From IMG/VR virus record IMGVR_UViG_3300036466_000132: DNA of 51,038 nt. One strand, given 5' to 3'. The notes beneath the pieces are model-generated. The model saw only the letters and a list, made by a program, of their open reading frames with translations. It searched no databases and had not been told where the DNA came from. Positions 8,306-43,388 of this stretch are shown piece after piece (position 1 is the stretch's first letter; each line of letters begins with the position of its first letter). This DNA is from a virus. A program made the position numbers and the translations under genes.

Positions 8306-10285
8306 ATGGAGCCTCGTAGCTTGAACTATCGGCCAGACATAGACGGGCTTAGAGCAATGGCCGTGTTGGCCGTATCCGTATTCCATTTCAATAGGGATTG
8401 GCTCCCCGGCGGATTCATCGGCGTAGATGTCTTCTTCGTGATTTCAGGGTTCCTGATCACTGGGATTATCTACGGCAAGGGGGCTGAATTCTCTTTCGCT
8501 GATTTCTACGGTCGCCGGATACGGAGAATCCTACCGGCGGCCATCTTCGTTACTGTCGTTACGCTCATTGCTGGCTCACTACTGATGATGCCGGCCGATG
8601 TAATAACCCTGTCGAACTCCTCGATTGCAGCAGCCCTCTCAGCCGCAAATGTCTATTTTTGGCTGTTCCTAGACACTAGCTATTTCGCGCCATCGTCCGA
8701 GACTGTGCCGTTACTACACATGTGGTCTCTAGGCGTGGAAGAGCAGTTCTATCTCGTTTGGCCTGCGTTAATGGTCATAGCCATGAAAGTTGGTGGCAAG
8801 CGCTTGTTGTCAGTCACCGCTCTGCTTATTGCAATAGCCTCGTTTGGGGTAAGCGAGTACTACGTTACCCGCGATCCCTCTTTCGCCTACTACATGTTGC
8901 CGTCCCGCGCTGGCGAGCTCTTGATTGGGGCGATCCTGTTCCTATGGATGGACTCCAGGCGAATTGGCGAAGCGGTTGCAAACTGGGCTGGGGTTATCGG
9001 CCTAGCGCTTGTTGCAGGCTCTCTGGTCATGCTTGATGAAAAAGGCGGATTTCCTGGCATCCGCTCCATCATCCCATCGGTCGGCGCCGCACTTATAATC
9101 CTCGGCGGCACCAACCAGGCCGGTCTGCTCGCCAGAAGCCTGGCAACTCCTGTCGCCGTATCAATTGGCCTCCGCTCTTTCTCCTTGTACCTGTGGCATT
9201 GGCCGGTTTTAGCGTTCTATAGGTATGCGTATGGTGAGCCTACGCTGGTGGGCGGCCTTGCGTGCGCAGGTATTATTTGGATGCTCACCGAGCTTACCTA
9301 CCGCATGATCGAGTCGCCGTTCCGGGGATACACGCCTAGCTGGATACTCACAAAAGCCACGCCGATATTCGCTACGAGCATGGCGGTAATGGCATTCAGC
9401 GTTTTCTTGGTTCAAAACAACGGCGTACTTCCAACCGAATCTGCCAAAGCGTATTTGGCGCAGCTAAATTTGCATGATCACAACACTAAGGCGGCAAGCA
9501 AATTTAAGTTTAATTGCCAGATGTTCAAAAATGACCCTGACCTATGGACACAGGATCGCTGCTTGATCGGCGATACATCTGAGCCGGCTGAAGCTTTACT
9601 TTGGGGCGACTCGAATGCTGCACACTACGTTGGGTATCTAAAGGCTGTAGCGGAACACTCGCATGTTGCTGTACGCAATATTTCACACTCTTCTTGCCCA
9701 CCGACCCGCAACCTTGACGGCTTGGTTCCGCCCGCCCTGCAGGAATCTTGCAATGAGTTCAACAACAAGGCGTTTGCGGAGTCGAAAAACTACCGCACCG
9801 TAATTATCGGGGCTGCTTGGAATAACTATGCGAAAGTGAACGGCAAACCTCAGTTCGAGGCGACGATAGCGGAACTTGCTGCCAACGGTAACCAAGTGGT
9901 AATCGCGCTCAATGTTCCTGTGTTCGAAGAGCTTGATCGAATGTGTAGTGCAAAGTCCATCCGTTTCCCCGGCATGGACTGTGCTTCTAAATCGGTATTC
10001 GCCTCATTTGCTGATAGCGACACCAACGCCTATCTAATCGATCTAGCAAGCCGGCACCCAAACGTCAGCACGTTCGGTGTACGTGAGCAGATCTGTAAGG
10101 ACGGTAAGTGCTCCGCCTACCAAGACGGCGCCCTACTGTACTACGACCGCGGTCACCTCAGCATGGTCGGCTCCGAGCTGATCGGCAAAGCCGCGATTAA
10201 AGCCGGCGCGGTACCCCAGCCAATCGCCGCGCTATCCCGAAGAGCCGTTAACACGTCAGTTACGCGAATGGATTCCGGGCGATGA
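8306..10285 (+). CDS. Acyltransferase-3 family O-antigen/LPS acetyltransferase with C-terminal SGNH domain (OafA-like)
   Basis: YRPDIDGLRAMAVLAVSVFHF...GFIGVDVFFVISGFLIT plus about 10 TM helices, then a soluble C-terminal domain (LLWGDSNAAHY). Opposite strand to the late genes and AT-richer. Confidence 0.9.
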   Translation: MEPRSLNYRPDIDGLRAMAVLAVSVFHFNRDWLPGGFIGVDVFFVISGFLITGIIYGKGAEFSFADFYGRRIRRILPAAIFVTVVTLIAGSLLMMPADVITLSNSSIAAALSAANVYFWLFLDTSYFAPSSETVPLLHMWSLGVEEQFYLVWPALMVIAMKVGGKRLLSVTALLIAIASFGVSEYYVTRDPSFAYYMLPSRAGELLIGAILFLWMDSRRIGEAVANWAGVIGLALVAGSLVMLDEKGGFPGIRSIIPSVGAALIILGGTNQAGLLARSLATPVAVSIGLRSFSLYLWHWPVLAFYRYAYGEPTLVGGLACAGIIWMLTELTYRMIESPFRGYTPSWILTKATPIFATSMAVMAFSVFLVQNNGVLPTESAKAYLAQLNLHDHNTKAASKFKFNCQMFKNDPDLWTQDRCLIGDTSEPAEALLWGDSNAAHYVGYLKAVAEHSHVAVRNISHSSCPPTRNLDGLVPPALQESCNEFNNKAFAESKNYRTVIIGAAWNNYAKVNGKPQFEATIAELAANGNQVVIALNVPVFEELDRMCSAKSIRFPGMDCASKSVFASFADSDTNAYLIDLASRHPNVSTFGVREQICKDGKCSAYQDGALLYYDRGHLSMVGSELIGKAAIKAGAVPQPIAALSRRAVNTSVTRMDSGR

Positions 10286-10345: not shown

Positions 10346-12547
10346 TTACGCGCTGATCGCACCAAACGGCTTCCAAGTGCCGGGAGTGCCTGCGGCTGTA
10401 CATACCCACCCAATGGTCCCTCCTGCGGAAGCTGCGGTATTCCATACAACGTCGTTTCGTGCCCAGCTGCCTGCGGTCGGGGCTCCGCTGCTCCACGACT
10501 CCTTTCGGTTCCATGTATTTCCATATTCGTAAAGGGACGTTACGCCCGCGCCCGTTACCTGGAGAAAGCCGTGGATGTACGATCCAAGCGCAGTGTTTCC
10601 CTTGATCTGCGCAGCAGCCACTCCTGAAGTTCCGCCCACTCTGAACGCACGCTGACCAAGAGTGCCTCCGTCGGTAACGCTGCGGACCAGATTGTTTGCC
10701 AATGATAAGAAATTGACTTCCTCGGCGAATATGCCGGTAGCAGTGGAGGCAAAAACCTCATTGTTCGATATGTCGATGCTAAGATTCGGCTGCGCCCCGA
10801 CAGAACCTATACCTGCACCACCCGCGTAGTTGACCATGTTCCCCCGGATCATAGCTAGGCCGTCGCAACCCGCAAACGCGATCCCCTGCGCCCCTGCATT
10901 TTTTACTATGTTGTCGCACACTTGGAAGGAAGTGGCTTTGTTCAGGTAAATGCCGATATCCCCAGCACTGTCGACTATATTTCCGCTGATCAGGATGTTC
11001 TGCGGTGCGGTGTCAGCGCTACTAACTTCAATCCCTCTGTAGGGGCAGTTGGAAATCATGTTATCGGTGATAACGTACCTTCCAGATACCGGAGCCAGCG
11101 TTGCGCTGACGAGATGTATCCCGCCCCCGTAACCCTTCCCGACATCCACGAAACTATTCATCTGGTTTCCGGTGATGGTCAGGTTACGGGCGTTAACCTT
11201 CCCTCGGATGGGTGTGACTCTGCTGCTGATGAACAGGTTGTTTGATATGTTTACGTCCTCGGCCCAGGCGTAAGCATCGATCACGCCAACACCGCTTCCA
11301 TCGGTAAAACGCCCGTACCCCCTGAACTGGTTGTTCGTGATCTGGACCTTCGTATACGAAGCAACCGACGTATCAACCCCCGCGATAGCGATGGCGCTGA
11401 TGCCTTGGTTGAGGGTCGTAAGACCGTGATCGAAGTCGCAGCCGTCTACGATGAGTTCAGCACCATCGGCGGCGAACACGGTGAAGGTGTTGTACACCCC
11501 GCTTTGGCTCGCGGTGCCTCCACGAAACGCGGAGTTGCGAATTACCAGGCGGTCTCGGGTGGCTGCGTCCTTGTCGCCGCGCACACGGACGGCCCCCTCG
11601 CAGAAATCCTTTAGCAGGCAGTTTTCTAAGACGAGGTTGATGCCGCCAACTTCGCTATTGATGAGGAATTTCCCAGATCCAAACGTCTGACCGGTATTGT
11701 TTTGGTTGAGAGTCAGCCCAACTAGACGGACCTCCGCCCCCGCTCCTGTGACGCTTAAACCAGTCCGATCGGAGCCGCTCAGCTGCCGGAGTTCCGCCAT
11801 GCCCTCTCCGACAATCTCTACTGACGACGGCACAACGATCTGGACGAACGAATAAACTTGCCCAAGGTTAGGCACCACGATCCGGCCGCCTTCAGCAGCA
11901 GTGATCGCAGCCGCGAACGCGGGCGACCAGTCCCAGGTTGCTGGGTCGAGCGGGTCAGGCTTACTAACGACGTGCCCTGCGAACTCCCAAATATTCAGCG
12001 CAGTGGCCGAAAGCCGCTCGGACACGGTGCTTACGCCGTCGACTAGGGCCGTACGGGACCATCCAATCAGCCCAGCCCCGCTATTTGCTGCCAGCTCCTG
12101 CCGCAGCACGTCATCCCCAAGCAGCACGAGATTGGCCGAGTCGGTCGCCCAGGTGCCAGTCAGTGTCAAAGGAAGCGTAGCGCCAGGGCCAGGACGGTAG
12201 AGCCCTGCTGTTGTGCCGGTAGTCGTCGCATTGACCGCCACATATTCATTGCGCTCGGCCAGAACAACGCCGGCCGCATAATCGCCCTTGCTCACATAGC
12301 CCGAGGACACCAGAAATGCCTGGAACCGGCTTTCTTTGTCCGCCTGGCTCAGCGCGAAAGAGGTCTCCCGGCCTTCCTGTGACGTGTCGAAATCGTTCTC
12401 CATCCCCGCCCAGGACTGGCGCAGCACGCCCTTGCGGTCGGCGTAGAACGGATCGGCGCCGTTGACCAGCTTGTCGAGATTTTCGGCGTTGTCGTACAGG
12501 TCGCGCGGATCGGTCGACGGGACGTTGTTGCCGGTGTTGAAGGTCAT
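10346..12547 (-). CDS. Tailspike / tail fibre with a right-handed beta-helix (pectate-lyase-like) receptor-binding or depolymerase domain
   Basis: Conserved N-terminal adaptor MTFNTGNNVPSTDPRDLYDNAENLDKLVNG. The body carries repeated N-x-(I/V)-x-(N/D) beta-helix rungs. It is the last tail gene. Confidence 0.8.
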   Translation of the reverse strand: MTFNTGNNVPSTDPRDLYDNAENLDKLVNGADPFYADRKGVLRQSWAGMENDFDTSQEGRETSFALSQADKESRFQAFLVSSGYVSKGDYAAGVVLAERNEYVAVNATTTGTTAGLYRPGPGATLPLTLTGTWATDSANLVLLGDDVLRQELAANSGAGLIGWSRTALVDGVSTVSERLSATALNIWEFAGHVVSKPDPLDPATWDWSPAFAAAITAAEGGRIVVPNLGQVYSFVQIVVPSSVEIVGEGMAELRQLSGSDRTGLSVTGAGAEVRLVGLTLNQNNTGQTFGSGKFLINSEVGGINLVLENCLLKDFCEGAVRVRGDKDAATRDRLVIRNSAFRGGTASQSGVYNTFTVFAADGAELIVDGCDFDHGLTTLNQGISAIAIAGVDTSVASYTKVQITNNQFRGYGRFTDGSGVGVIDAYAWAEDVNISNNLFISSRVTPIRGKVNARNLTITGNQMNSFVDVGKGYGGGIHLVSATLAPVSGRYVITDNMISNCPYRGIEVSSADTAPQNILISGNIVDSAGDIGIYLNKATSFQVCDNIVKNAGAQGIAFAGCDGLAMIRGNMVNYAGGAGIGSVGAQPNLSIDISNNEVFASTATGIFAEEVNFLSLANNLVRSVTDGGTLGQRAFRVGGTSGVAAAQIKGNTALGSYIHGFLQVTGAGVTSLYEYGNTWNRKESWSSGAPTAGSWARNDVVWNTAASAGGTIGWVCTAAGTPGTWKPFGAISA

Positions 12548-16184: not shown

Positions 16185-16645
16185 GCCTCTGGCCACTCCC
16201 TGTTGAGTGCAAGGTCGAGAATCGAAGGATCAAGGACGTACTGAGGGAGAAGCTGCCAGCCATCACTGAGCGTTTGCCGCTCGCGGATCTCCAGCCTGCA
16301 GCTGATGCGCCAGTAATCGGGGCCATCGAGGCGCGCGGTGTAGGCAGGCGATCCATCTGAACCCATGAAGCGCATCGTCGTCTGCCGGCCAGGCCCAGAT
16401 GTCTGAGCCCAGCCAGTGAACCACTCCTCGCCGTCCTTCAGTGACCAGCGGAACCAGGCCTCGAACAGCTCGAACTCTTTCTGAGGCATCCCCCAGGAAA
16501 GAGTCACGAAGCTCGGCACGCTGGTGTATTTGCGGCGCTGCCTAGCGCGGCCACTAACCATCGGAGTTCGCGTTAGGTTAGGCGCATGCTCGAGCGAGTA
16601 GCCGGACAGGTCGGGGTACGGCAGTTCTGATGGGTACTCGATCAT
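16181..16645 (-). CDS. Minor/distal tail protein (lambda M-like position)
   Basis: 154-aa ORF immediately after the tape measure gene, coupled by overlaps. Confidence 0.6.
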   Translation of the reverse strand: MIEYPSELPYPDLSGYSLEHAPNLTRTPMVSGRARQRRKYTSVPSFVTLSWGMPQKEFELFEAWFRWSLKDGEEWFTGWAQTSGPGRQTTMRFMGSDGSPAYTARLDGPDYWRISCRLEIRERQTLSDGWQLLPQYVLDPSILDLALNREWPEA

Positions 16646-18954
16646 CTGCCCGCCCTCTTCAGTCCATATGCCTGCTCAAGCGCAAGCGCCTCTGGCGTTC
16701 CGCCAGCCCTGATCTTCGCCACCCAGAGCTGCAGCACCTTTTCCCCGTCAGGCCCTGTCGTCTGCTCTACCTGCCCAGCTCTGGAGCTATCCTCGACGAG
16801 GTTTACGACGACGTTGCCGCCATCTGATGCGTTTCCAGGCCCTCCGCGCTGCTTGGTGTGGTCAATGACGGTTTCCTGCGGGTGCATCATCGCGAGGAAT
16901 CCGCCCTTTCCATCCAGGCCGCCGCTGCGAGGGCCGTTACCGGTGTAGCCGCCGCCATCGAACGAGAGCCCAACCGAGGCAATGTTCGAGACGAGGCCGG
17001 CCGTAGCCGCGGCCACGGACGCCATAGCGCCGAGGTTCAGCGGCCACGGGTTAGCCGCAGCAAGGGCAATGCCCTGCTGAATGGCAATCATCGATTGCGC
17101 GATAGCGAAAGCTTTCTGCGCGATGAACATCGCCTTGTAGATACCGGACTGCTCGCCGGCGAACTGCGCGGTGATATCGGCCAGGTTGCCGAACAGGTCC
17201 GTCGCGCTGGACAGCGAGACCTGATAGCGCGCCTGCTCGAGCTGTTCGACCTGCTGCTGGTGTTGCTCCTGAATGTTGCGAACGCGTTCGGCGTACTGCT
17301 CCTCGTTGATCGCTTTCGCCTCAAGGAATCCGCGCTGCTTTTCGAGCTCTGTCGCACGCCACTCCTCAAGCTGCGCGGCCTGCTCCTGCAGGCGCATGAA
17401 CTCGCTAGCGGCACCGCCGATTTCTGGCGAGACGACACCGGAGTTCGGCGCCTTGGTGACGCCTTCAACCGTCCCGGGAGCCTGGTCGGCGTTCATCTGC
17501 ACTTCGCGGATGCGGCGCAGCGTTTCCAGCCTCTGCAACGCCTCGACATTGCCCTGGCGTTCGTACTCGGCGATTTTCTCGGCGTACTCCAGCTGGAACT
17601 GCGCGTCATTGGCGGCGCGCAGCTGTCCTGACTCGCGCAGGATGTCGATGCGGATCTGCTCTTGCGCGGTCAACTCGCGCTTGGCTGCTAGTTCAGCCTT
17701 TAGCTGCGCCTGCAGAGCTTTTGAATTGCTGATTTCTTTTTCTACAACTCCCGTTCCGCTGCTAGCCATCCTGAGCGCCGGGCGCTGAGCCGCAGCTGCC
17801 GGAACAGGCGAACCACTGCCTGACTGAAGCGTTGAGGCAAGATCCGCGAGTTCGTATGCCTGGTCGAGCTGCCGCTTTACCTTGTCGTAGCTTTCCTTCG
17901 TGCTTCCGTAGATCGCGTATCCTGTTTCTCCGCGCTGCTCCATCTTGTTGAGCAGCTCTTGCAGGCGAGAGGCTTCCTGCTCGAGGCGGTCAATGTCATG
18001 CAAGCCGATCCCGTTGAACAGAACCGCCAGCTCTTCGGCCATCCACTGGACGGCACCAACGGTAGACGTCGCAGCCTCTACGACCCAGCCAAGTGCAGTT
18101 GCGATGCCGGCCGCGAGATCTTGGGCCGCTTTCACCGTCGCAGGATCGGACAGGATGTCGGCCAGTTTCATGATCTCGGCAGCAGCATTTGCCGAGGCGC
18201 CAGTGGTTTGGTCCATCTGCCCAACGAGTTGGACAAACGCATTGCCGACCGTAGTCATTGCGCCAGAAACAGTAGGCGCCAGCGTTGCGAACTGCTGGTC
18301 CAGCGCCTCTCCCTGGCTGAGCAGAGCGTCGACTACAGCCTGCGCAGAAATTTTCCCTTCAGCACCTAGTGCACGAAGCTGCCCTACGGTAACACCCATG
18401 CCGCGCGCCAAGGCTTGCGCCAGAGCGGGAGCATTCTCCAGCACCGAGTTCAGTTCCTCACCGCGCAGCTGGCCAGATGCGAACGCCTGCCCTAGCTGGG
18501 TAAGCGCACCCGCTGCCGCCGATGCTGATGTGCCTGAGACGGCAAGCGACTTGTTGATTACCTCAGTGATGCGGGCAACGCCGTCGCCGGTTAGGCCTAG
18601 CTCTTTCTGGTTGGTGGCGATGCGCTGGTAGAGCTCGGCCGTCTCGGTGAGCGGCTGCCTAGAATTCTGCGCGATGCGGAACAGATCTGCCTGAGCTTGC
18701 GCAAATTGCTCGGAACTCGCCGTTACCAAGCGCAAGCGGTTGTTGATTGTGGTGTATGCCTCAGCAGCTCTAACCACCTCGCGCACGCTGAAATAGGTGG
18801 CAAGAACGCCGCCAAGCTTCTTGAAGCTAGAAGTGAGGCCATCTGCCGCTGAACTCGCCTTACGCGCAGATCCAGGCAGCTTGTCCAGTTCGGCTCTCGC
18901 CTTTGCGGCTTGGGTGCTATCTACAGCCACGACCAACCGTGCGTATTCAGTCAT
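16642..18954 (-). CDS. Tail tape measure protein
   Basis: About 770 aa, Ala/Gln-rich and helical, between the chaperone and distal tail genes. ATG 18954 overlaps the upstream stop. The track start at 18966 is a TTG. Confidence 0.9.
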   Translation of the reverse strand: MTEYARLVVAVDSTQAAKARAELDKLPGSARKASSAADGLTSSFKKLGGVLATYFSVREVVRAAEAYTTINNRLRLVTASSEQFAQAQADLFRIAQNSRQPLTETAELYQRIATNQKELGLTGDGVARITEVINKSLAVSGTSASAAAGALTQLGQAFASGQLRGEELNSVLENAPALAQALARGMGVTVGQLRALGAEGKISAQAVVDALLSQGEALDQQFATLAPTVSGAMTTVGNAFVQLVGQMDQTTGASANAAAEIMKLADILSDPATVKAAQDLAAGIATALGWVVEAATSTVGAVQWMAEELAVLFNGIGLHDIDRLEQEASRLQELLNKMEQRGETGYAIYGSTKESYDKVKRQLDQAYELADLASTLQSGSGSPVPAAAAQRPALRMASSGTGVVEKEISNSKALQAQLKAELAAKRELTAQEQIRIDILRESGQLRAANDAQFQLEYAEKIAEYERQGNVEALQRLETLRRIREVQMNADQAPGTVEGVTKAPNSGVVSPEIGGAASEFMRLQEQAAQLEEWRATELEKQRGFLEAKAINEEQYAERVRNIQEQHQQQVEQLEQARYQVSLSSATDLFGNLADITAQFAGEQSGIYKAMFIAQKAFAIAQSMIAIQQGIALAAANPWPLNLGAMASVAAATAGLVSNIASVGLSFDGGGYTGNGPRSGGLDGKGGFLAMMHPQETVIDHTKQRGGPGNASDGGNVVVNLVEDSSRAGQVEQTTGPDGEKVLQLWVAKIRAGGTPEALALEQAYGLKRAGR

Positions 18955-19297
18955 GGCGTACCCCAAAGTGCATTGAATGGTTTTCAGCTATGCGCTCGAT
19001 CTGCCGGCGCAGACGCGGCGCTTCAATGAGCAGCTGGACTGGATCGATTTCGCTAGGCAGCGACCAGTCAGCTATGAGCGCAGCGGCGAGAGTGGCGCGG
19101 AGACGCCTAGTCTTCTGCTTTCCAGAATCATTCGAGCTATGCCCTGCGCCTTCTACAGCTCGCAACGAGGCCGCCTTGAACTCATCGCTTAGCACGGACC
19201 TGATGCGAATCCACTCCCGGCTACCTGCAGGGTCGGCAAAATAGACAACAATGCCCTTGCTGGCCCTCGTCTTCGTGTAGAAATCCTGCGGGCGCAT
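18947..19297 (-). CDS. Second tail-assembly-chaperone (G-like) paralog without a T extension
   Basis: MRPQDFYTKTRASKG...EWIRIRSVLSDEFKAA...AALIADWS...IEAPRL aligns with the G protein at 20256-20648. The GGAGAA SD favours ATG 19297. Confidence 0.6.
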   Translation of the reverse strand: MRPQDFYTKTRASKGIVVYFADPAGSREWIRIRSVLSDEFKAASLRAVEGAGHSSNDSGKQKTRRLRATLAAALIADWSLPSEIDPVQLLIEAPRLRRQIERIAENHSMHFGVRHD

Positions 19298-19313
19298 CTT
19301 TTCTCCGGGCATT

Positions 19314-19336
19314 AAAAAGCCCGCACTAGGCGGGCT
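19314..19336 (-). terminator. Intrinsic terminator closing the Imm/lipoprotein insert
   Basis: AGCCCGC-ctagt-GCGGGCT followed by TTTTT on the minus strand. Confidence 0.6.
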
Positions 19337-19353
19337 CTTATGTGTCTTTACGG

Positions 19354-19713
19354 TCAGTCGCGCTTGACTGCTCCGTTACCTTGGAACTCGGATATGTTGA
19401 AGCCATCCGGCTCCCACGATCCATTCGGCGACAGAACCATGATGGCGTCGAACTTGCTGCGCACCATGGCTCCGAACAGGTTTTGCGAATCCACGTAGCT
19501 GCTGATCAAGTACCTGCACCCGTCAGACTTATCCACGTGCGCTCCTTTTTCTCCTGCAATCGGGAAGGAAGCTGTCGCCGGCGCAACCAGTCGCTCTGCA
19601 ACCAGTGCCTGAGCTGCCATATACGCAGCGTCAGCGTCATTACAGACCTGCTCGCGCGCATCACAACCAGCCAGCCCAAGAACAGCAGCCGCACATACGA
19701 CAGAGAATCTCAT
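19354..19713 (-). CDS. Lipoprotein (insert gene)
   Basis: MRFSVVCAAAVLGLAGC has a signal peptide and a LAGC lipobox. Its ATG overlaps the upstream stop (ATGA). The longer 190-aa track ORF start is unlikely. Confidence 0.7.
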   Translation of the reverse strand: MRFSVVCAAAVLGLAGCDAREQVCNDADAAYMAAQALVAERLVAPATASFPIAGEKGAHVDKSDGCRYLISSYVDSQNLFGAMVRSKFDAIMVLSPNGSWEPDGFNISEFQGNGAVKRD

Positions 19714-19889
19714 TGCGGCTTGCTCGACGATGCTGACCACACGAGCGCGCCAACCCATCCAAGCAAAGTCCAACCGAGGAACAGGTTGAGCAGCATAATC
19801 GACGCCGCGTTGTGATGACCCCGCATGTAGGCGATCAGGCCGGGCAGGAAATAGGCGGCGACCATCACCGCCAACATGATGAACTCCAT
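19710..19889 (-). CDS. Superinfection-immunity (Imm-like) small membrane protein, 59 aa (not in ORF track)
   Basis: MEFIMLAVMVAAYFLPGLIAYMRGHHNAASIMLLNLFLGWTLLGWVGALVWSASSSKPQ carries the YFLP...R.H.N...I...N..LGWT..GW..AL.W signature of the Imm_superinfect family. Confidence 0.7.
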   Translation of the reverse strand: MEFIMLAVMVAAYFLPGLIAYMRGHHNAASIMLLNLFLGWTLLGWVGALVWSASSSKPQ

Positions 19890-19935
19890 AGGACGCGCTC
19901 CCTGTCAGAAAGCGCCAGAGTACCAAATCGGCGCC

Positions 19936-20648
19936 CTACTGACTCGCCACGCGATCCTCTACCGCAGCCAGCCGGCGCAGTAGCGTGACCTCGAACGGGA
20001 GTAGGCGGTGGCCGTACAGTTCGGACCAGGCCTTGATGTCTGCGAGCGAGCCGATCGGCCTGGCTGAGCAGTACCACTCCCAGACGTAGGCAAGCTCATC
20101 AGGGCACGGCGGGCCATCCAGGCGGGACGGACGCTTGCCGGTCTTCTCCGCAATGGCTTCCAGCTGCGCGCGGACGGTGATGCGCTTGTCCGGCCCTTTC
20201 TTCGGCCTCGGCCCAGCTGGTCGCAGCAGTCCAAGTTGATGCTCGGCGTGCGCGATCAGTCCTTCGGCGAGCCCGTCGAGCGTTTCCCAAAAAAACGGCG
20301 GCGATCACTCGCGAACCGGTCCACCTCGGTAGCGACGTATGGCGCCTCGCGCAGAAACTCCAGAAGCGCGGCCTCGGTGAACTCTGCATCGAATGACCAG
20401 CCGATCACGAGCGCGGCATTCAACTTGAGCCGTGCGGCCTCGGTTTTGTCCGCCTTTTCGTTCTCATCCTTCAGTGAGGCCAGGACTAACAGCTCGCGCC
20501 TGAAGTCGTCCAGCGCCACGCGGAACTGGTCGGAATCCACGCCGCGGATCAGCAGCCACTCATCCGTTGGCGTCCCGTCAGGCAGGGAGAGCGGCATGCG
20601 CTCCCCCTCGTTCGCCTTGGCCCGGGTGAAAAAGTCACTCGGTTTCAT
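19936..20648 (-). CDS. Tail assembly chaperone GT fusion made by a programmed -1 ribosomal frameshift at 20289-20295
   Basis: The -1 frame is open for 117 codons from the slip site to TAG 19936-19938. It has no ATG, and its only GTG lies four codons before the stop. It opens only 4 codons upstream of the slippery heptamer. Confidence 0.65.
20256..20648 (-). CDS. Tail assembly chaperone G (zero-frame product)
   Basis: Immediately after the major tail gene, with an AAGGGGG SD. It ends shortly after a T7 slippery run. Confidence 0.75.
   Translation of the reverse strand: MKPSDFFTRAKANEGERMPLSLPDGTPTDEWLLIRGVDSDQFRVALDDFRRELLVLASLKDENEKADKTEAARLKLNAALVIGWSFDAEFTEAALLEFLREAPYVATEVDRFASDRRRFFGKRSTGSPKD
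20289..20295 (-). promoter_or_regulatory. Slippery heptamer T_TTT_TTT (X_XXY_YYZ) for the G/GT -1 frameshift
   Basis: Zero-frame reading is cgT TTT TTT ggg. A7 on the plus strand at 20289-20295. Confidence 0.6.
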
Positions 20649-20658
20649 GCGAGCCCCC

Positions 20659-21822
20659 TTATGCCGGAATGCGGGTGATGGTGATCTCAGTGTCGACCGC
20701 CTGGTCATTGAATGCCCGGAAGTCGTAATTCTGGATGATCGGATCGTCGCCGCTGCCTTCCTCGCTCGAGGTCGTCAGCTTGGCCTGGGTCATGCTGATC
20801 TGATAGCTGTTCTCGCCATCGGTCAGGGTCACGACCAACGGGGTCTTGGTCTCGCCGAGGTACTTGTCCTTCAGGCGGTTGTCCTCGATGTAGGCGGACA
20901 GACTGCCGGAAACGTTGATGCGGCCCAGCTTGATGTCGTAGGCGTCGCGGCTGAACAGGCGGTAGATCGCCTCCATGCCGTTGTCCAGCGACAGGTTGAG
21001 CGCGGTCGCGTGGTTGAGGCCGGTACCGCCCTCGGTCAGCGACCCCTCGAAGGTCGTCATCATCACGGTTTCGGTCGGGTCGGCGATGCTCTCGGTCAGA
21101 GCATCGTAGACGTAAGGCTCTTCCTTGGTCCCAATCATGGAGAAGGTGATGCCGATCTTGCCCTGCAGCGGGCAGTCGATCGCAACGCTGCCGACTTCGC
21201 AGCCGCGGTAGATCAGCCAGCGGCCAATGTCCTCGTTGTGCTTGAGGATGGCGAACTTGCGGCGAGTGCTGCCGGTCTTCAGGGTGCCGCCGGTCGCGAT
21301 CGTAACGGAGGCACCCGCCAGCTCATCCACCAGGGTGACGGCGCCGCCGGCCAAGTCGGTGACGGTGATTTTGCCGGCTGCGACCGAAGCCACTTTGAAC
21401 TGACCATTGTTCGCAGCAGTTGCGAAGCCGCTTACCTTGACGACATCGCCAACCGCGAAGCCGGCAGTCACGAAGCCCGACGCGGAGTCGTTGAAGCTGT
21501 CGTCTGCGGCTGCGACCGAGAGAGTCGAAGCTGTGCGTGTCTTCACCTGCCAAGTGCCGTGGAAAGCCGCCTCCAGCAGCATATCGAAGGTGCCGTAGGT
21601 CAGCTCCGCCTCAAGGTCGCCGGCCACGCTGAAAACGCCGCTGCGGGACTCGGCCATGTGGCGGCCGGGCAACATCTCATCGGACTCCAACTCCTCGACC
21701 GACTGGCTCAGACCGTTGGTGATCAGGCGAAGCGGAATCCAGGCGACGGCCGGGTCGAGAGTGCCGCCGACACCCTCGATTTTGAGATATGTATTTTGGG
21801 AAACACCTACTGCATAGGCCAT
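20659..21822 (-). CDS. Major tail (tube) protein
   Basis: 387 aa with a GGAGAAAGC SD before ATG 21822. Position is upstream of G/GT and downstream of the tail terminator. Confidence 0.75.
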   Translation of the reverse strand: MAYAVGVSQNTYLKIEGVGGTLDPAVAWIPLRLITNGLSQSVEELESDEMLPGRHMAESRSGVFSVAGDLEAELTYGTFDMLLEAAFHGTWQVKTRTASTLSVAAADDSFNDSASGFVTAGFAVGDVVKVSGFATAANNGQFKVASVAAGKITVTDLAGGAVTLVDELAGASVTIATGGTLKTGSTRRKFAILKHNEDIGRWLIYRGCEVGSVAIDCPLQGKIGITFSMIGTKEEPYVYDALTESIADPTETVMMTTFEGSLTEGGTGLNHATALNLSLDNGMEAIYRLFSRDAYDIKLGRINVSGSLSAYIEDNRLKDKYLGETKTPLVVTLTDGENSYQISMTQAKLTTSSEEGSGDDPIIQNYDFRAFNDQAVDTEITITRIPA

Positions 21823-21841: not shown

Positions 21842-21862
21842 AAAAGCCCGCACTAGGCGGGC
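21842..21862 (-). terminator. Intrinsic terminator upstream of the major tail gene
   Basis: GCCCGC-ctagt-GCGGGC followed by TTTT on the minus strand. Same hairpin as at 19314. Confidence 0.55.
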
Positions 21863-21883
21863 CGCTATAAATTCTTGTGAAAC

Positions 21884-21912
21884 AAAAAGGGCGACCCTTT
21901 CGGAATCGCCCT
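21884..21912 (-). terminator. Second, tandem intrinsic terminator
   Basis: AGGGCGA...TCGCCCT stem followed by TTTTT on the minus strand. Confidence 0.55.
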
Positions 21913-33085: not shown

Positions 33086-33439
33086 TTAAGCTGCCATTCG
33101 TCGGTCGAATTCCGACTCAACGTAACCGTGCACACGGCTCAGCATGTCCTTCACCTGGTGGCGTGATTTACCCAGCTCCTTGCCGATCTGCTCCATGGTG
33201 CGGTTGTGGCAGTAGTACAGGTGCACAGCCTCGGAGGCCTCGGGATAGCGCTGCTGTAAGCGAGCCACTACAGCCGATACCGTCTCAGCCTCTTCATCGG
33301 TGATCGCAGCATCTGGCGCGTGAGTGCTGGGCACGTTGTCGCGCATGATGGCCAGCATCGGTGAGACGTACCGAGGCACGCCTGTCTTCTGCCATACCCA
33401 GATACCCCATTGGGTCAAAAGCTCTTCGGCGGATTTCAT
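33086..33439 (-). CDS. Late-gene antiterminator, phage Q family
   Basis: LLTQWGIWVW...ITDEEAETVSAVVARLQQRYPEASEAVHLYYCHNRTMEQIGKELGKSRHQVKDMLSRVHGYVE resembles the Phage_antitermQ family. It is the last early gene before the late genes. Confidence 0.7.
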   Translation of the reverse strand: MKSAEELLTQWGIWVWQKTGVPRYVSPMLAIMRDNVPSTHAPDAAITDEEAETVSAVVARLQQRYPEASEAVHLYYCHNRTMEQIGKELGKSRHQVKDMLSRVHGYVESEFDRRMAA

Positions 33440-34563
33440 CAGAACAACCTCCCCAGTGATGCGGCGAATTCGTAAGGGTCTTTAGCGCTCTTGCGCAGGT
33501 TGCAAGGCGGGCAAGCAATAACCAGATTGTCGACCACATGCATTCCGCCCTTCGATAGCGGCTGATAGTGGTCAACGTGATAGTTGTTTTCACACTTTGA
33601 TTTGCACCAGTGGCAAAACTTTGGAACTGATCGCTCCCAGGCCATAATCACGGACGTACTATCGCCACCAGCCTCTAGCTGTCTGCGCCTAGCCTTGTAC
33701 GCTTTAGATATCGCCTTCCTGATCTCTGGATTCTTCTTTGCCCACTCTTTGGCTTTCTGCGCCCTTACTTCCCTGTTTTGTTCGTTGCGAATTCTCGCAA
33801 GTTGAATGATCCGATCCCTGTTTTCAGCAAGGTATTTCCGGTCGTACTCTTTTTTAAGTTCAGACCGTGAGAAAATTGCCAAGCACTCGACACATGATCC
33901 AGAGGCTGTATATTTCATGCCGCTGTGGCCCTTCGAGCACGGCCGTCCGACATACATTAAGGCGCCGCTTTCGAGCGCTATCTTTCGTGCGCTCTTGGCT
34001 ATCCTGCGCTCCTTGCGACGAGCAGCTACCTCCGCCAGCCGAGACGATCGCTCTTCTGAGATTCGCTTGCGCCCTGCCTTCCCCTTCTCGTACTCCTCCA
34101 GCGTCATTCCGAACTTGGCGGCTGCCGATATAGCCTCGCATGTCCGGCAGCGATCAGTTGATACGTAGCGCTCTGCTGAATGTCCGTTAACGCACGGCAA
34201 TCCGATGCTGTAGAACATCAGCCCGGCATCCATAGCAGCTTGCCGGAGAGAAGCGCGCCGTTCCCTCTCAGCTTTCCGCACGGCCAGCCCTGGATCTCGC
34301 TTCAGCCGTCGCGCCATTTTCTTCTCTGCGCACAAAGGGTCAGAGTCACGCCGCATCTTTTGCTCAGCGCGCTCGGCCTCTATGTTCGCGTGATACTTAG
34401 CCTTCCTCTTCAGCCTGGCGCACTCGCAGCAGGCGCCGTTGATCGTGCTCCTGTCTGCAATGTGCCCGGCGGGACATTCCTTGCCGTTAAAGTAGGATTT
34501 AAGGCCGGCCGCTTTTGCTTCCGCTCGCAGAACTATCGGCTTGTTTATTTCTGCGGGAATCAT
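33439..34563 (-). CDS. HNH endonuclease with three N-terminal C-x2-GH...C-x2-C zinc-finger repeats
   Basis: C-terminal HWCKSKC...HVDHYQPLSKGGMHVVDNLVIACPPCNLRK. Repeats are ECPAGH..CCEC, PCVNGH..CRTC and PCSKGH..CVEC. AT-richer than the flanks. Confidence 0.8.
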   Translation of the reverse strand: MIPAEINKPIVLRAEAKAAGLKSYFNGKECPAGHIADRSTINGACCECARLKRKAKYHANIEAERAEQKMRRDSDPLCAEKKMARRLKRDPGLAVRKAERERRASLRQAAMDAGLMFYSIGLPCVNGHSAERYVSTDRCRTCEAISAAAKFGMTLEEYEKGKAGRKRISEERSSRLAEVAARRKERRIAKSARKIALESGALMYVGRPCSKGHSGMKYTASGSCVECLAIFSRSELKKEYDRKYLAENRDRIIQLARIRNEQNREVRAQKAKEWAKKNPEIRKAISKAYKARRRQLEAGGDSTSVIMAWERSVPKFCHWCKSKCENNYHVDHYQPLSKGGMHVVDNLVIACPPCNLRKSAKDPYEFAASLGRLF

Positions 34564-42350: not shown

Positions 42351-42389
42351 GGCAATTTCCTTCTGCGGGGATGAATTGTGAAAAAGGAA

Positions 42390-42602
42390 TCAGGCAGCGG
42401 TCTTGACGCGCTTGAGTCGCGGGCAGAGGTCGACGGCCTTGAACAGCCCGCCAGTGACCTCTTCGGCCTTGAGCGCGGTAATGGCGTGCATTCCACGTTT
42501 CCCAGTGACCCAGCCGGAGACGGTGGTCTGGTCAATACCAAGGGCCTCGCCGGTCTTGACCTGCGTACCGAAGTGCTTGACGAGCTGTTCGTAGATGTTC
42601 AT
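42390..42602 (-). CDS. cro: Cro-like repressor (YdaS/Cro family HTH)
   Basis: MNIYEQLVKHFGTQVKTGEALGIDQTTVSGWVTGKRGMHAITALKAEEVTGG. Divergent from cI. Confidence 0.75.
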   Translation of the reverse strand: MNIYEQLVKHFGTQVKTGEALGIDQTTVSGWVTGKRGMHAITALKAEEVTGGLFKAVDLCPRLKRVKTAA

Positions 42603-42689
42603 GTGGCGCCCTTTTACGATTCTCGCCATATCTTAGGTTATGGCGAGAACCCTTTGCAAGCCTATGGCAAGAATCCTGATCATTTACCC
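42603..42689. promoter_or_regulatory. OR-like switch region: operators plus divergent PR/PRM candidates
   Basis: 30-bp palindrome TTCTCGCCATA-N8-TATGGCGAGAA (42620-42649) and a third half-site TATGGCAAGAA (42663-42673). The palindromic TTGCAA (42654-42659) could serve as -35 in both directions. Candidate -10 elements are TAAGAT on the minus strand (42630-42635) and GATCAT on the plus strand (42678-42683). Confidence 0.6.
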
Positions 42690-43388
42690 ATGAACAGCAT
42701 CGGCCAACGCGTCAAAGCAGCCCGGAAATACGCCGGCCTGACACAAGTCCAGCTCGCTGAAAAGGCGCAGATGGACCAGACCACAATCTCAAAGCTTGAG
42801 AAGGGTCATAACGCCAAGTCCGCCTTCTGCGTGCGGATCGCAGTTGCGTGCGGCGTTAGCCCGGTATGGGTTGAAACTGGACAAGGCGACATGCTGCCTA
42901 AAGAATCGAGCTCCCCCACCGATAATGGGGAGAATGTAGAACCACTCCGGGTCCATGACGCATCCGTTATTTCGTTCAGCGACTTCCATAGAGTGCCGCT
43001 GATCAGCTGGGTAGCTGCGGGATCGTGGAGTGAGGCTATCGACCTTTACGAAGTAGGCGATGCTGAGGTTTGGATGCCCTGCCCTGATCCGATTGGCCCG
43101 CGCGGCTTTGCACTGCGCGTTGAGGGGGACTCGATGACGAGCCCCTACCCTGGTTCCGAAAGCTATCCGCACGGGACGTTTATCTACGTCGACCCAGACG
43201 TAGCCCACAAATCCGGCGATCCAGTGATTGCCAAGCTGCCGTCCAGCAACTCAGCGACGTTCAAGATATTCATCGAGGACGCAGGGAAGTTCTATCTGAA
43301 GCCGCTGAACCCTCAGATGCCCATCATCCCCATCACCGAAGAGACGCACATCGTGGCGGTTCTCGTTGGCGCCTACAAACGCCGCTGA
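42690..43388 (+). CDS. cI: CI-type repressor (HTH_XRE plus LexA/S24 autopeptidase domain)
   Basis: IGQRVKAARKYAGLTQVQLAEKAQMDQTTISKLEKG, then the S24 domain ...FALRVEGDSM...VIAKL.... There is no SD before ATG 42690. Confidence 0.9.
   Translation: MNSIGQRVKAARKYAGLTQVQLAEKAQMDQTTISKLEKGHNAKSAFCVRIAVACGVSPVWVETGQGDMLPKESSSPTDNGENVEPLRVHDASVISFSDFHRVPLISWVAAGSWSEAIDLYEVGDAEVWMPCPDPIGPRGFALRVEGDSMTSPYPGSESYPHGTFIYVDPDVAHKSGDPVIAKLPSSNSATFKIFIEDAGKFYLKPLNPQMPIIPITEETHIVAVLVGAYKRR

What the first reader, a model, noticed from the sequence alone, without database searches (positions are those of the whole stretch)
19354..19889. Two-gene membrane insert (Imm-like superinfection immunity protein plus lipoprotein) inside the tail operon; the first gene is absent from the ORF track
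Between the T-frame stop (19936) and the second chaperone lie two genes. The first is a 59-aa ORF (19710-19889) reading MEFIMLAVMVAAYFLPGLIAYMRGHHNAASIMLLNLFLGWTLLGWVGALVWSASSSKPQ, which matches the signature of the 'superinfection immunity protein' membrane family. The second is an ATGA-coupled 119-aa lipoprotein (19354-19713) with a LAGC lipobox. A strong terminator at 19314-19336 closes the cassette.

The ORF track hides this arrangement behind a spurious 190-aa ORF. The pair is a plausible envelope-level superinfection-exclusion system carried as cargo in a structural operon.
Basis: partly seen in the sequence, partly recalled or inferred. Interest (0 to 1): 0.65.

Follow-up and report, generated by a model that had tools for sequence, protein, structure and literature searches.

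The report
Imm-plus-lipoprotein moron before tape-measure gene
A temperate Pseudomonas-type phage carries, between its tail-chaperone and tape-measure genes, a swappable two-gene cassette (a relative of phage T4's Imm protein plus an unnamed lipoprotein) that most likely stops other phages from injecting DNA; this is a new example of a known kind of element, not a new kind.

Summary
On the minus strand, the T-frame stop (19936-19938) is followed by a 59-aa gene (19710-19889), then an ATGA-overlapping 119-aa LAGC-lipobox gene (19354-19713), then a strong terminator (19313-19336).

- **Both genes are real.** Both are under purifying selection. The 190-aa ORF is a mechanical artefact.
- **Gene 1** is a true Imm_superinfect member (64.5 bits, cut-off 27.9). 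It aligns to T4 Imm and keeps the two residues shown to matter for T4 Imm.
- **Gene 2** belongs to a large unnamed extracytoplasmic domain family.
- **It is cargo.** In about 40 related Stutzerimonas/Pseudomonas phages and prophages this site is either empty or holds one of 15 or more alternative sets of small envelope genes. Nearly every set has a conserved TGnTAnnnT extended -10-like motif upstream and a terminator downstream.
- **The two genes are independent modules.** Each occurs in the slot without the other.
- **Link to tape-measure genes.** Both families sit directly upstream of tape-measure genes in unrelated siphophages. T4 Imm has been reported to bind the tape measure.

This is the HK97 gp15 arrangement with different proteins: a new member of a known kind. 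Function and prophage expression are inferred, not shown.

The parts
19936..20294 (-). Context: T-frame extension of the tail assembly chaperone. A -1 frameshift at the slippery TTTTTTG (20288-20294) leads to a TAG stop at 19936-19938. This is the left border of the cargo slot.
   Evidence: Frame translation and slippery-site scan. The equivalent ORF in relative L003 carries Pfam Phage_TAC_18. It is 75-100% conserved in relatives.
19917..19925 (-). TGGTACTCT, an extended -10-like promoter motif (TGnTAnnnT). Its last T lies 28 nt before the Imm ATG. Putative promoter of the cassette.
   Evidence: The same TG-n-TA-nnn-T pattern lies 23-29 nt upstream of the first envelope cargo gene in nearly all cassette types, including upstream regions with unrelated sequence. 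Background is 0.018 per 45-nt window. Promoter activity is inferred, not shown.
19898..19903 (-). Shine-Dalgarno AGGGAG, 8 nt before the Imm ATG.
   Evidence: Read from the sequence. A GGGAGG-type SD is conserved in the relatives' cassettes.
19710..19889 (-). imm-like gene, 59 aa. A two-helix inner-membrane protein of the Imm_superinfect family, homologous to T4 Imm.
   Evidence: Pfam PF14373, 64.5 bits against a cut-off of 27.9. phrog_1039 'immunity to superinfection', 3e-23. BLASTP against T4 Imm: 31% identity, E = 2e-10. R23 and W40 align with T4 R33 and W50. Purifying selection.
19354..19713 (-). Lipoprotein gene, 119 aa. Signal peptide with lipobox LAGC (Cys17) and Asp at +2. The mature part is an alpha+beta domain of a large unnamed family.
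   Evidence: ATGA overlap and lipobox read from the sequence. phrog_13160, unknown function, 2e-13. 2,891 representative clusters at E <= 1e-3. AF2 model with MSA has pLDDT 88. No Pfam, NCBIfam, PADLOC or PDB identity. Purifying selection.
19313..19336 (-). Intrinsic terminator: 7-bp GC stem, 5-nt loop, T-run. It closes the cassette and abuts the TAC2 ORF.
   Evidence: Fold of -16.3 kcal/mol, z = -3.0. A hairpin plus T-run is present in every occupied slot, with compensatory stem variants, and absent from the empty slot.
18947..19312 (-). Context: TAC2, a paralogue of chaperone G without a T extension. Its likely start is the ATG at 19297. This is the right border of the slot, immediately upstream of the tape-measure gene.
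   Evidence: phrog_313, 5.7e-4. About 30% identical to G by tblastn. Present in all relatives, and its identity tracks that of the TMP rather than G.
16642..18954 (-). Context: tape measure protein gene (TMP_3 type in relatives). The hydrophobic segment lies at about aa 615-665.
   Evidence: The equivalent genes in L001-L003 carry Pfam TMP_3. Hydropathy and conservation profile.

Best explanation
The region 19313-19925 (minus strand) is a moron: an autonomous cassette of promoter, two genes and terminator. It sits in a recombination and cargo hotspot between the tail chaperone G/G-T genes and the TAC2 and tape-measure genes of a temperate Stutzerimonas/Pseudomonas-type siphophage.

**Gene 1 (Imm homologue).** It inserts as a helical hairpin into the inner membrane. 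Most likely it blocks genome translocation by superinfecting phages, by engaging the membrane-inserting part of their tape measure protein, as reported for T4 Imm.

**Gene 2 (lipoprotein).** It is translationally coupled to gene 1 and exports a lipid-anchored globular domain to the periplasm. It is probably a second, independently acting envelope-level exclusion factor, for example one that binds an incoming tail tip or TMP, or masks an envelope component.

**Shown here:** gene reality, family membership of gene 1, the lipobox, cargo status, modularity, and the conserved promoter-like motif and terminator.

**Inferred:** promoter activity, prophage expression, exclusion activity, the target, and any role at all for the lipoprotein.
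For: **Imm family membership.** Pfam Imm_superinfect at 64.5 bits. T4 Imm itself scores 58.2 bits on the same model and aligns pairwise at E = 2e-10. Thirteen invariant columns include R23 and W40, which align with T4 R33 and W50. Mutating those residues lowered exclusion in the preprint 10.64898/2026.03.06.709160, which also reports that Imm binds the T4 TMP.

**Cargo status.**
- L047 has an empty site, where the T stop overlaps the TAC2 start.
- 35 or more distinct slot contents occur, almost all small lipoproteins or membrane proteins.
- The window's own cassette is mosaic. Its T end and Imm N-terminal part resemble L025 and L008. Its Imm C-terminus, lipoprotein, TAC2 and TMP resemble L006.

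**Autonomous transcription unit.**
- A TGnTAnnnT motif lies at a fixed distance upstream of cargo genes across unrelated upstream sequences.
- A terminator with compensatory stem changes occurs in all occupied slots and folds at -16.3 kcal/mol in the window.

**Temperate lifestyle.** Integrase and a CI-like S24 repressor are present. Relatives occur as prophages in Stutzerimonas stutzeri, Pseudomonas sp. and Halopseudomonas.

**Synteny with TMP genes in other lineages.**
- Imm homologues: 41 of 79 loci have a large ORF just downstream, and 8 of 9 sampled are TMPs.
- Lipoprotein-domain homologues: about 33 of about 70 loci have one, and 7 of 10 sampled are TMP_3. One further case lies between Phage_tail_T and TMP_2 in an HK97-like phage.

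**Precedent.** HK97 gp15, the original moron, occupies the same position and is an inner-membrane exclusion protein that depends on the tail region (PMC3594210).
Against: - No expression or phenotype data exist.
- The standard sigma-70 scan finds no promoter here. The window's -10 hexamer TACTCT is weak (3 of 6).
- The promoter-like motif could be conserved merely as a recombination boundary.
- Terminator hairpins also precede the major tail gene (21845-21863), so terminators are not unique to cargo in this phage.
- PF14373 has only one characterised member (T4 Imm), from a virulent myophage.
- The window protein is shorter than T4 Imm (59 aa against 83). It lacks the first 10 and the last 14 residues of T4 Imm.
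- The lipoprotein has no characterised homologue, and its fold matches nothing informative (best PDB E about 0.03, TM 0.4).
- The cassette's GC content differs only modestly from its neighbours (57-58% against 61-66%).
Confidence: 0.6

Rival explanations
1. Only Imm is an exclusion factor. The lipoprotein is a lysogenic-conversion gene acting on host envelope physiology (stress tolerance, adhesion or serum resistance, in the manner of lambda Bor or Lom), or on a non-phage threat such as bacteriocins or tailocins.
For: The two genes are independent modules. The slot also holds BamE-like and other general envelope lipoproteins. The lipoprotein family has thousands of members, many of them on long bacterial contigs from Paracoccus, Proteus, Photorhabdus and P. 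aeruginosa. There is no hit in PADLOC.
Against: The family recurs immediately upstream of TMP genes in unrelated siphophages. That placement is hard to explain by general physiology. Translational coupling to Imm is conserved in all four variants of the pair.
Confidence: 0.25
2. The cassette is transcribed mainly or only with the late tail operon. It would act during lytic growth, protecting the infected cell from late superinfection or keeping progeny from wasting DNA on infected cells and debris (as T5 Llp and T4 Imm do), rather than protecting lysogens.
For: It lies inside the late operon on the same strand. No canonical -35/-10 promoter was found. The experimentally studied family member, T4 Imm, acts during lytic infection. 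Other terminators sit inside the late operon, so read-through is evidently normal.
Against: A terminator that appears only together with cargo, and a TGnTAnnnT motif kept at a fixed distance from cargo start codons in otherwise unrelated upstream sequences, fit an independent transcription unit better.
Confidence: 0.3
3. Imm and the lipoprotein form one obligate two-component complex at the inner membrane.
For: ATGA overlap is conserved in the window, L001, L002 and L008. The lipoprotein has Asp at +2, which is the inner-membrane retention rule in E. coli (from my own knowledge). That would place both proteins at the same membrane.
Against: Each gene occurs alone in the same slot. No co-occurrence was found in 76 other lipoprotein-family loci or 70 or more other Imm-family loci. 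The four pair variants are close relatives and so are not independent evidence. The +2 rule is not reliable in pseudomonads.
Confidence: 0.12
4. The ORFs are chance or decaying remnants with no function.
For: Both are short, and the first is below the usual ORF length cut-offs.
Against: Third-position substitution bias and a synonymous excess occur only in these frames. The Pfam and PHROG hits are strong. The SD, start codons and coupling are conserved.
Confidence: 0.02

Closest known systems
HK97 gp15 moron (Juhala et al. 2000; Cumby et al. 2012; reviewed in PMC3594210)
   Same: [quoted passage not shown] It has the same promoter-gene-terminator logic. Its product is a small inner-membrane protein that blocks DNA entry of superinfecting phages in a way that depends on the tail region. 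The host phage is a temperate siphophage.
   Different: The protein family is unrelated: gp15 is YebO-like, and no YebO hit was found here. The cassette here has two genes. The slot here is separated from the TMP by an extra chaperone paralogue (TAC2). In this phage family the slot holds 15 or more alternative cargo sets.
Phage T4 Imm (PF14373 founder; Lu and Henning; bioRxiv 10.64898/2026.03.06.709160)
   Same: It is homologous: same Pfam model, 31% identity, and a conserved Y-x-L-P...R...W...GW...WS pattern that includes the functionally tested R33 and W50 equivalents. The expected mechanism is the same: an inner-membrane block of TMP-mediated genome translocation.
   Different: T4 is a virulent myophage. 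Its imm is an early gene in the replication cluster and acts alongside Sp. The protein here is 59 aa against 83. It lacks the first 10 and the last 14 residues of T4 Imm. It sits in a moron next to the TMP gene of a temperate siphophage.
Lipoprotein exclusion factors: Ltp (S. thermophilus TP-J34, targets the TMP; PMC3952083), Llp (T5) and Cor (phi80, N15, HK022; block FhuA)
   Same: These are prophage- or phage-encoded lipoproteins exposed outside the cytoplasm that stop superinfection at the adsorption or DNA-entry step. Ltp's target is a tape measure protein.
   Different: No sequence or fold similarity was detected. Ltp lies in the lysogeny module of a Gram-positive phage. The function of the lipoprotein here is entirely inferred.
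P22 SieA (PMC10883804)
   Same: It is a prophage-expressed inner-membrane protein that blocks DNA entry.
   Different: The protein is unrelated and larger, and its genome location differs.

Membership tests
Imm_superinfect (PF14373) / T4 Imm | Scores above the Pfam gathering threshold over the whole domain | tested here: met
   64.5 bits against 27.9, profile positions 2-41 of 42. phrog_1039, 3.3e-23.
Imm_superinfect (PF14373) / T4 Imm | Direct similarity to the characterised founder, T4 Imm | tested here: met
   T4 Imm scores 58.2 bits on the same model. BLASTP gives 31% identity over 55 aa, E = 2e-10.
Imm_superinfect (PF14373) / T4 Imm | Conservation of the residues shown to matter for exclusion (T4 R33 and W50) | tested here: met
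   These align with window R23 and W40, which are invariant columns in A3. The mutational data come from bioRxiv 10.64898/2026.03.06.709160.
Imm_superinfect (PF14373) / T4 Imm | Blocks genome translocation of superinfecting phage; binds the tape measure protein | not testable with these tools
   This needs plating, DNA-entry and co-purification experiments.
Moron (Juhala/Hendrix definition) | Extra DNA present in some, and absent from other, closely related genomes at the same site between conserved genes | tested here: met
   L047 has an empty site with the T stop overlapping the TAC2 start. There are 35 or more alternative contents.
Moron (Juhala/Hendrix definition) | Own terminator | tested here: met
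   Hairpin plus T-run at 19313-19336, -16.3 kcal/mol. It is present in every occupied slot with compensatory stem variants.
Moron (Juhala/Hendrix definition) | Own promoter active in the prophage | tested here: inconclusive
   There is no canonical -35/-10 promoter. A conserved extended -10-like TGnTAnnnT motif lies 23-29 nt before cargo ATGs. Activity was not measured.
Moron (Juhala/Hendrix definition) | Base composition different from flanking genes | tested here: inconclusive
   The cassette is 57-58% GC. G is 62%, the T region about 66% and the TMP 61%. TAC2 is also 58%.
Bacterial lipoprotein (signal peptidase II substrate) | A positively charged n-region and a hydrophobic h-region, followed by a [LVI][ASTVI][GAS]C lipobox | tested here: met
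   MR-FSVVCAAAVLG-LAG-C17, read from the sequence. The lipobox is kept in L001, L002 and L008. No dedicated predictor such as LipoP or SignalP was available.
Known exclusion lipoproteins (Ltp, Llp, Cor) | Sequence or fold similarity to a characterised member | tested here: not met
   No Pfam, NCBIfam or PADLOC hit. No PDB sequence hit. The best PDB fold matches are NTF2-like or CaMKII hub at E about 0.03, TM about 0.4.
HK97 gp15 / YebO family | Sequence similarity to gp15 or YebO | tested here: not met
   Neither protein lists YebO in its Pfam hits at E <= 1. The resemblance is positional and functional only.

The most novel reading that the evidence does not exclude
The TAC-TMP junction of siphophages may be a general exchange site for portable cassettes of promoter, envelope gene and terminator. 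Their products would be anti-tape-measure 'immunity' factors, genetically linked to TMP genes much as colicin immunity genes are linked to colicin genes.

Under this reading, the unnamed lipoprotein domain would be a new, widespread class of periplasmic factor that blocks DNA entry. The family has about 2,900 representative clusters and lies directly upstream of a TMP in roughly a third or more of viral occurrences. It would act one compartment outside Imm, and Imm carriage would track the type of TMP membrane segment. In the loci examined, all 8 Imm carriers have the window-type segment.
Probability: 0.25. Interest if true: 0.65.

Novelty: new member of a known kind. Interest (0 to 1): 0.4.

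Why it matters
The element itself is ordinary, but three things give it some value.

- **An experimental handle on Imm homologues.** It offers a tractable case of a T4-Imm homologue in a temperate siphophage. There are natural variants with Imm alone, Imm plus the lipoprotein, the lipoprotein domain alone, and an empty site. Relatives also carry two types of TMP membrane segment. Together these allow a test of whether the recently reported Imm-TMP interaction generalises beyond T4.
- **A candidate function for an unnamed protein family.** The large lipoprotein-domain family has no Pfam model or name. Its position next to TMP genes in unrelated phages suggests a testable role in blocking DNA entry.
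- **An annotation point.** The slot, with its conserved promoter-like motif and terminator, marks where to look for small envelope and defence genes that routine gene calling misses or mis-calls. Here, one gene falls below the 60-aa cut-off and a spurious 190-aa (or 134-aa) call masks it.

Tried and rejected
- **Sigma-54 promoter reading of the conserved left element.** The GG-to-GC spacing is 9 or 10 nt and the GC is sometimes absent. The predicted start would fall inside the SD. Rejected.
- **Conserved RNA hairpin at the left border.** By eye the stems seemed to covary, but RNAalifold found no consensus pairs. Dropped.
- **Single-sequence AlphaFold of the lipoprotein.** pLDDT was 39.6, so the model was useless. 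It was repeated with a 119-sequence alignment and gave pLDDT 88.
- **Sequence search of the PDB with the lipoprotein.** No hits.
- **PDB fold search.** Only weak NTF2-like, CaMKII hub and VirB8-like resemblance, which is not informative.
- **BFVD fold search.** The hits are all uncharacterised phage proteins or lipoproteins.
- **Searches of cultured phage genomes.** tblastn of Imm found nothing, probably because of low-complexity masking. The lipoprotein gave only two weak hits. blastn of the region found no close cultured relative.
- **Exact-sequence look-up of the window lipoprotein.** Not on record.
- **Contexts of P0004 and P0007.** The contigs are too short to be informative.
- **Source names for lipoprotein homologues.** Names exist for few homologues, and every name is 'hypothetical protein'.
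- **Rfam on the region.** Nothing near threshold.
- **Spanin or lysis role for the lipoprotein.** Rejected. It is a 100-aa globular domain, not a short proline-rich o-spanin. The only lysis-type marker seen, DUF2514 in relative L001, lies beyond the tail genes rather than in this slot.
- **Virion or assembly role.** Rejected, because the protein carries an export signal and a lipobox.

Full report
**1. The observation**

On the minus strand the gene order is as follows.

- Major tail protein: ORF from 21843, with the probable ATG at 21821.
- Tail assembly chaperone G: 20256-20648.
- A -1 frame that opens at the slippery run TTTTTTG (20288-20294) and ends at TAG 19936-19938.
- A 46-nt spacer.
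- A 119-aa ORF at 19354-19713. Its ATG overlaps the previous TGA (ATGA), and it begins MRFSVVCAAAVLGLAG-C.
- A hairpin AGCCCGC-CTAGT-GCGGGCT with a T-run at 19313-19336. It folds at -16.3 kcal/mol, z = -3.0.
- A second chaperone-like ORF at 18947-19312.
- The tape measure gene at 16642-18954.

The 59-aa ORF is invisible at the default 60-aa cut-off. The 190-aa ORF (19354-19926) is the lipoprotein frame run upstream to a TTG across the Imm gene.

Two tests show which frames are real.

- GC3 is 0.78 in the Imm frame and 0.48 in the extension of the 190-aa ORF.
- Against relatives, substitutions cluster at third codon positions, and synonymous changes are frequent only in the Imm and lipoprotein frames.

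**2. What the two proteins are**

*Gene 1.* It matches Pfam Imm_superinfect at 7.8e-18 (64.5 bits, gathering cut-off 27.9). It also matches PHROG 1039, 'immunity to superinfection', at 3e-23.

I checked that this family name is earned. The T4 imm product taken from NC_000866 scores 58.2 bits on the same model. It aligns with the window protein at 31% identity, E = 2e-10.

In an alignment with T4 Imm, 13 columns are invariant. They include R23 and W40, the counterparts of T4 R33 and W50. A 2026 preprint (10.64898/2026.03.06.709160) reports that T4 Imm co-purifies with the T4 tape measure protein gp29. It also reports that R33A and W50A lower exclusion.

*Gene 2.* It has a textbook lipobox but no Pfam, NCBIfam, PADLOC or PDB sequence match.

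- An exhaustive HMMER search found 2,891 representative clusters at E <= 1e-3, sharing an approximately 80-residue domain.
- The domain consensus is C-x-D...LKAPxTAxFP...G-x-C...YVDSQNxFGAxIR.
- The domain is anchored variously by a lipobox, a TM helix, or a zinc ribbon plus TM.
- Every source name given for a homologue is 'hypothetical protein'.
- With a 119-sequence alignment, AlphaFold gives a confident model (pLDDT 88): two helices packed on a four-stranded antiparallel sheet.
- The model matches only uncharacterised phage proteins in BFVD. In the PDB it matches, weakly, NTF2-like folds.

**3. It is cargo in a hotspot**

Anchoring on G and on TAC2 recovered about 60 loci from IMG/VR, Logan, ENA and JGI contigs. 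It also recovered four prophages, in Stutzerimonas stutzeri KOS6, a Pseudomonas MAG, a MAG labelled Pelagibacterium, and Halopseudomonas pertucinogena.

All share the order major tail protein, G, G-T, [slot], TAC2, TMP. The slot length ranges from zero to about 1.9 kb.

- In L047 the slot is empty: the T-frame TGA overlaps the TAC2 ATG.
- There are at least 35 distinct slot sequences.

The contents are almost entirely small exported or membrane proteins.

- Imm alone (L025, L026, L039, L043).
- Imm plus this lipoprotein (the window, L001, L002, L006, L008).
- BamE-like lipoproteins.
- Other lipoproteins.
- Two-TM proteins.
- TM-anchored or lipobox-anchored versions of the same domain as gene 2, without Imm (L024, L014, L041, L058).
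- More distant relatives of that domain (L016, L029).

The two genes are therefore independent modules that happen to share a cassette here.

The window's own cassette is a recombinant. Its T end and the N-terminal part of Imm resemble L025 and L008. The Imm C-terminus, the lipoprotein, TAC2 and the TMP resemble L006.

**4. Cassette borders**

*Right border.* Every occupied slot ends in a GC hairpin plus T-run that abuts TAC2. Several stem sequences differ by compensatory changes: AGCCCGC/GCGGGCT, ACCCGC/GCGGGT, GCCGCC/GGCGGT and CCCAGC/GCTGGG. The empty slot has no hairpin.

*Left border.* Most cassettes carry a conserved element right after the T stop. I considered and dropped two readings of it.

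- A sigma-54 promoter, because the spacing is inconsistent.
- An RNA hairpin, because RNAalifold finds no consensus pairs.

What is invariant is T-G-n-T-A-n-n-n-T. These are exactly the most conserved positions of an extended -10 sigma-70 promoter. The last T lies 23-29 nt before the start codon, with a GGGAGG-type SD in between.

The pattern recurs upstream of cargo in regions that otherwise share no sequence.

- TGCTACGAT in L054.
- TGCTAGGAT in L040.
- TGCTAACTT in L028.
- TGATACATT in L023.
- TGCTACATT before the second gene of L020.
- TGGTATGCT in L058.

It also recurs before internal cargo genes of multi-gene slots. The background expectation is 0.018 per 45-nt window.

In the window the motif is TGGTACTCT at 19917-19925. 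Promoter, genes and terminator together meet the definition of a moron. Promoter activity is inferred, not shown. The standard -35/-10 scan finds nothing.

**5. Lifestyle**

The window encodes an integrase (4538-5758), a CI-like HTH and S24 repressor (42378-43388) and an ERF recombinase. Relatives sit in bacterial chromosomes. A prophage-expressed function is therefore plausible.

**6. Link to tape measure genes beyond this phage family**

*Lipoprotein-domain family.*

- A 48%-identical homologue sits between Phage_tail_T and a TMP_2 tape measure in an unrelated phage with an HK97-like head.
- Among about 70 further IMG/VR loci with distant homologues, about 33 have an ORF of 650 aa or more starting within 800 nt downstream on the same strand.
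- Seven of ten sampled ORFs are Pfam TMP_3, one is marginally lambda-TMP-like, one is gpJ, and one is unassigned.

*Imm family.*

- 41 of the 79 best viral loci have a downstream ORF of 600 aa or more.
- Eight of nine sampled are TMPs of two different Pfam types, and one is gpJ.

Outside the present phage family, no locus had both families side by side.

*Within the family.* All eight evaluable Imm carriers have a TMP whose hydrophobic segment (aa 590-700) is at least 77% identical to the window's. About half of the non-carriers have a divergent segment. This is suggestive only, because the loci are not phylogenetically independent.

**7. Mechanism**

*Most likely (confidence about 0.6).* Imm inserts in the inner membrane and prevents incoming tape measure proteins from opening the DNA conduit, as reported for T4 Imm and proposed for HK97 gp15. 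The co-translated lipoprotein is a second envelope factor acting in the periplasm.

*Lipoprotein placement.* Its Asp at +2 would mean inner-membrane retention under the E. coli rule. That rule is from my own knowledge and is unreliable in pseudomonads. Its conserved Cys pair fits an oxidising compartment.

*Rivals.*

- The lipoprotein serves host physiology rather than exclusion.
- The cassette acts mainly in the lytic cycle via late read-through.
- The two proteins form an obligate complex, which is disfavoured by the modularity.
- The ORFs are spurious, which is refuted.

**8. Comparison with what is known, and novelty**

The closest precedent is the very first moron, HK97 gene 15. It lies between the tail chaperone and tape measure genes and encodes a small inner-membrane exclusion protein that depends on the tail region (PMC3594210).

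The present case uses different proteins, a T4-Imm homologue plus an unnamed lipoprotein. It lies in a slot with unusually rich cargo turnover. It is a new member of a known kind.

Three by-products are the more interesting part.

- The portable promoter and terminator borders.
- The recurrent placement of both families directly upstream of TMP genes.
- The unnamed lipoprotein family.

All three remain hypotheses about function.

Noticed in passing
window 18947-19312 (-), likely start 19297; relatives L001-L067: The phage family carries two tail-assembly-chaperone paralogues: G with its -1 frameshift T extension, and a second one (TAC2) with no T extension, directly before the TMP. TAC2 identity tracks TMP identity (98-99% with 98%; 55% with 30%), while G/T stay 75-100% conserved. 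The cargo slot therefore coincides with a mosaic junction between two tail modules.
   Followed up: partly
window 21845-21863 and 21888-21912 (-): Two more terminator-like hairpins lie in the ORF-free 250 nt between the tail-terminator gene (ends 22097) and the major tail protein ATG (21821). The proximal one (GGCCCGCCTAGTGCGGGCT) is almost the same sequence as the cassette terminator and is likewise followed by GGAGAAA-N-ATG. It may be a remnant of another cassette border, or a general feature of the late operon.
   Followed up: partly
L029 ~5295-5340, L034 ~2320-2373; partial in L012 3134, L019 2879, L050 4732, L056 6219: Multi-cargo slots contain an internal second copy of the left border. 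In L029 and L034 this copy includes a duplicated 3' end of the T coding frame (GTGGCGAGCCAGTAG) plus the TGnTAnnnT motif. This suggests that cassettes are added by recombination at this border sequence.
   Followed up: partly
window 8306-10285 (+), next to 10346-12547 (-): An AT3 acyltransferase fused to an SGNH domain (Pfam 1.7e-24 and 3.1e-42) lies beside a beta-helix tailspike-like gene. It is a probable O-antigen-modifying lysogenic conversion gene, and so a second envelope-level exclusion candidate in the same phage.
   Followed up: no
window 1821-2774 (+): A 317-aa ORF has a C-terminal match to the R67-type (type II) dihydrofolate reductase domain (PF06442, 9.2e-22, residues 264-317).
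   Followed up: no
L177, L178, L180, L181, L183, L185, L187, L190, L192, L195: A group of 203-aa proteins containing the Imm_superinfect domain lies upstream of a large ORF, at a distance of about 0.9-1.6 kb. In the one case sampled (L177) that ORF is a tip attachment protein J gene rather than a TMP. A similar 203-aa protein in L189 lies directly upstream of a TMP_2 tape measure. This is a second recurrent tail-operon position for the family.
   Followed up: partly
window TMP aa 590-700 (about window 16855-17187, -); L001-L047: The hydrophobic, membrane-inserting segment of the TMP is far more conserved (77-100%) than the rest of the protein among phages that carry Imm. N-terminal identity among the same phages falls to 30%.
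   Followed up: partly
window 33439-34563 (-): A 374-aa ORF has a C-terminal HNH endonuclease domain (PF01844, 2.4e-9).
   Followed up: no
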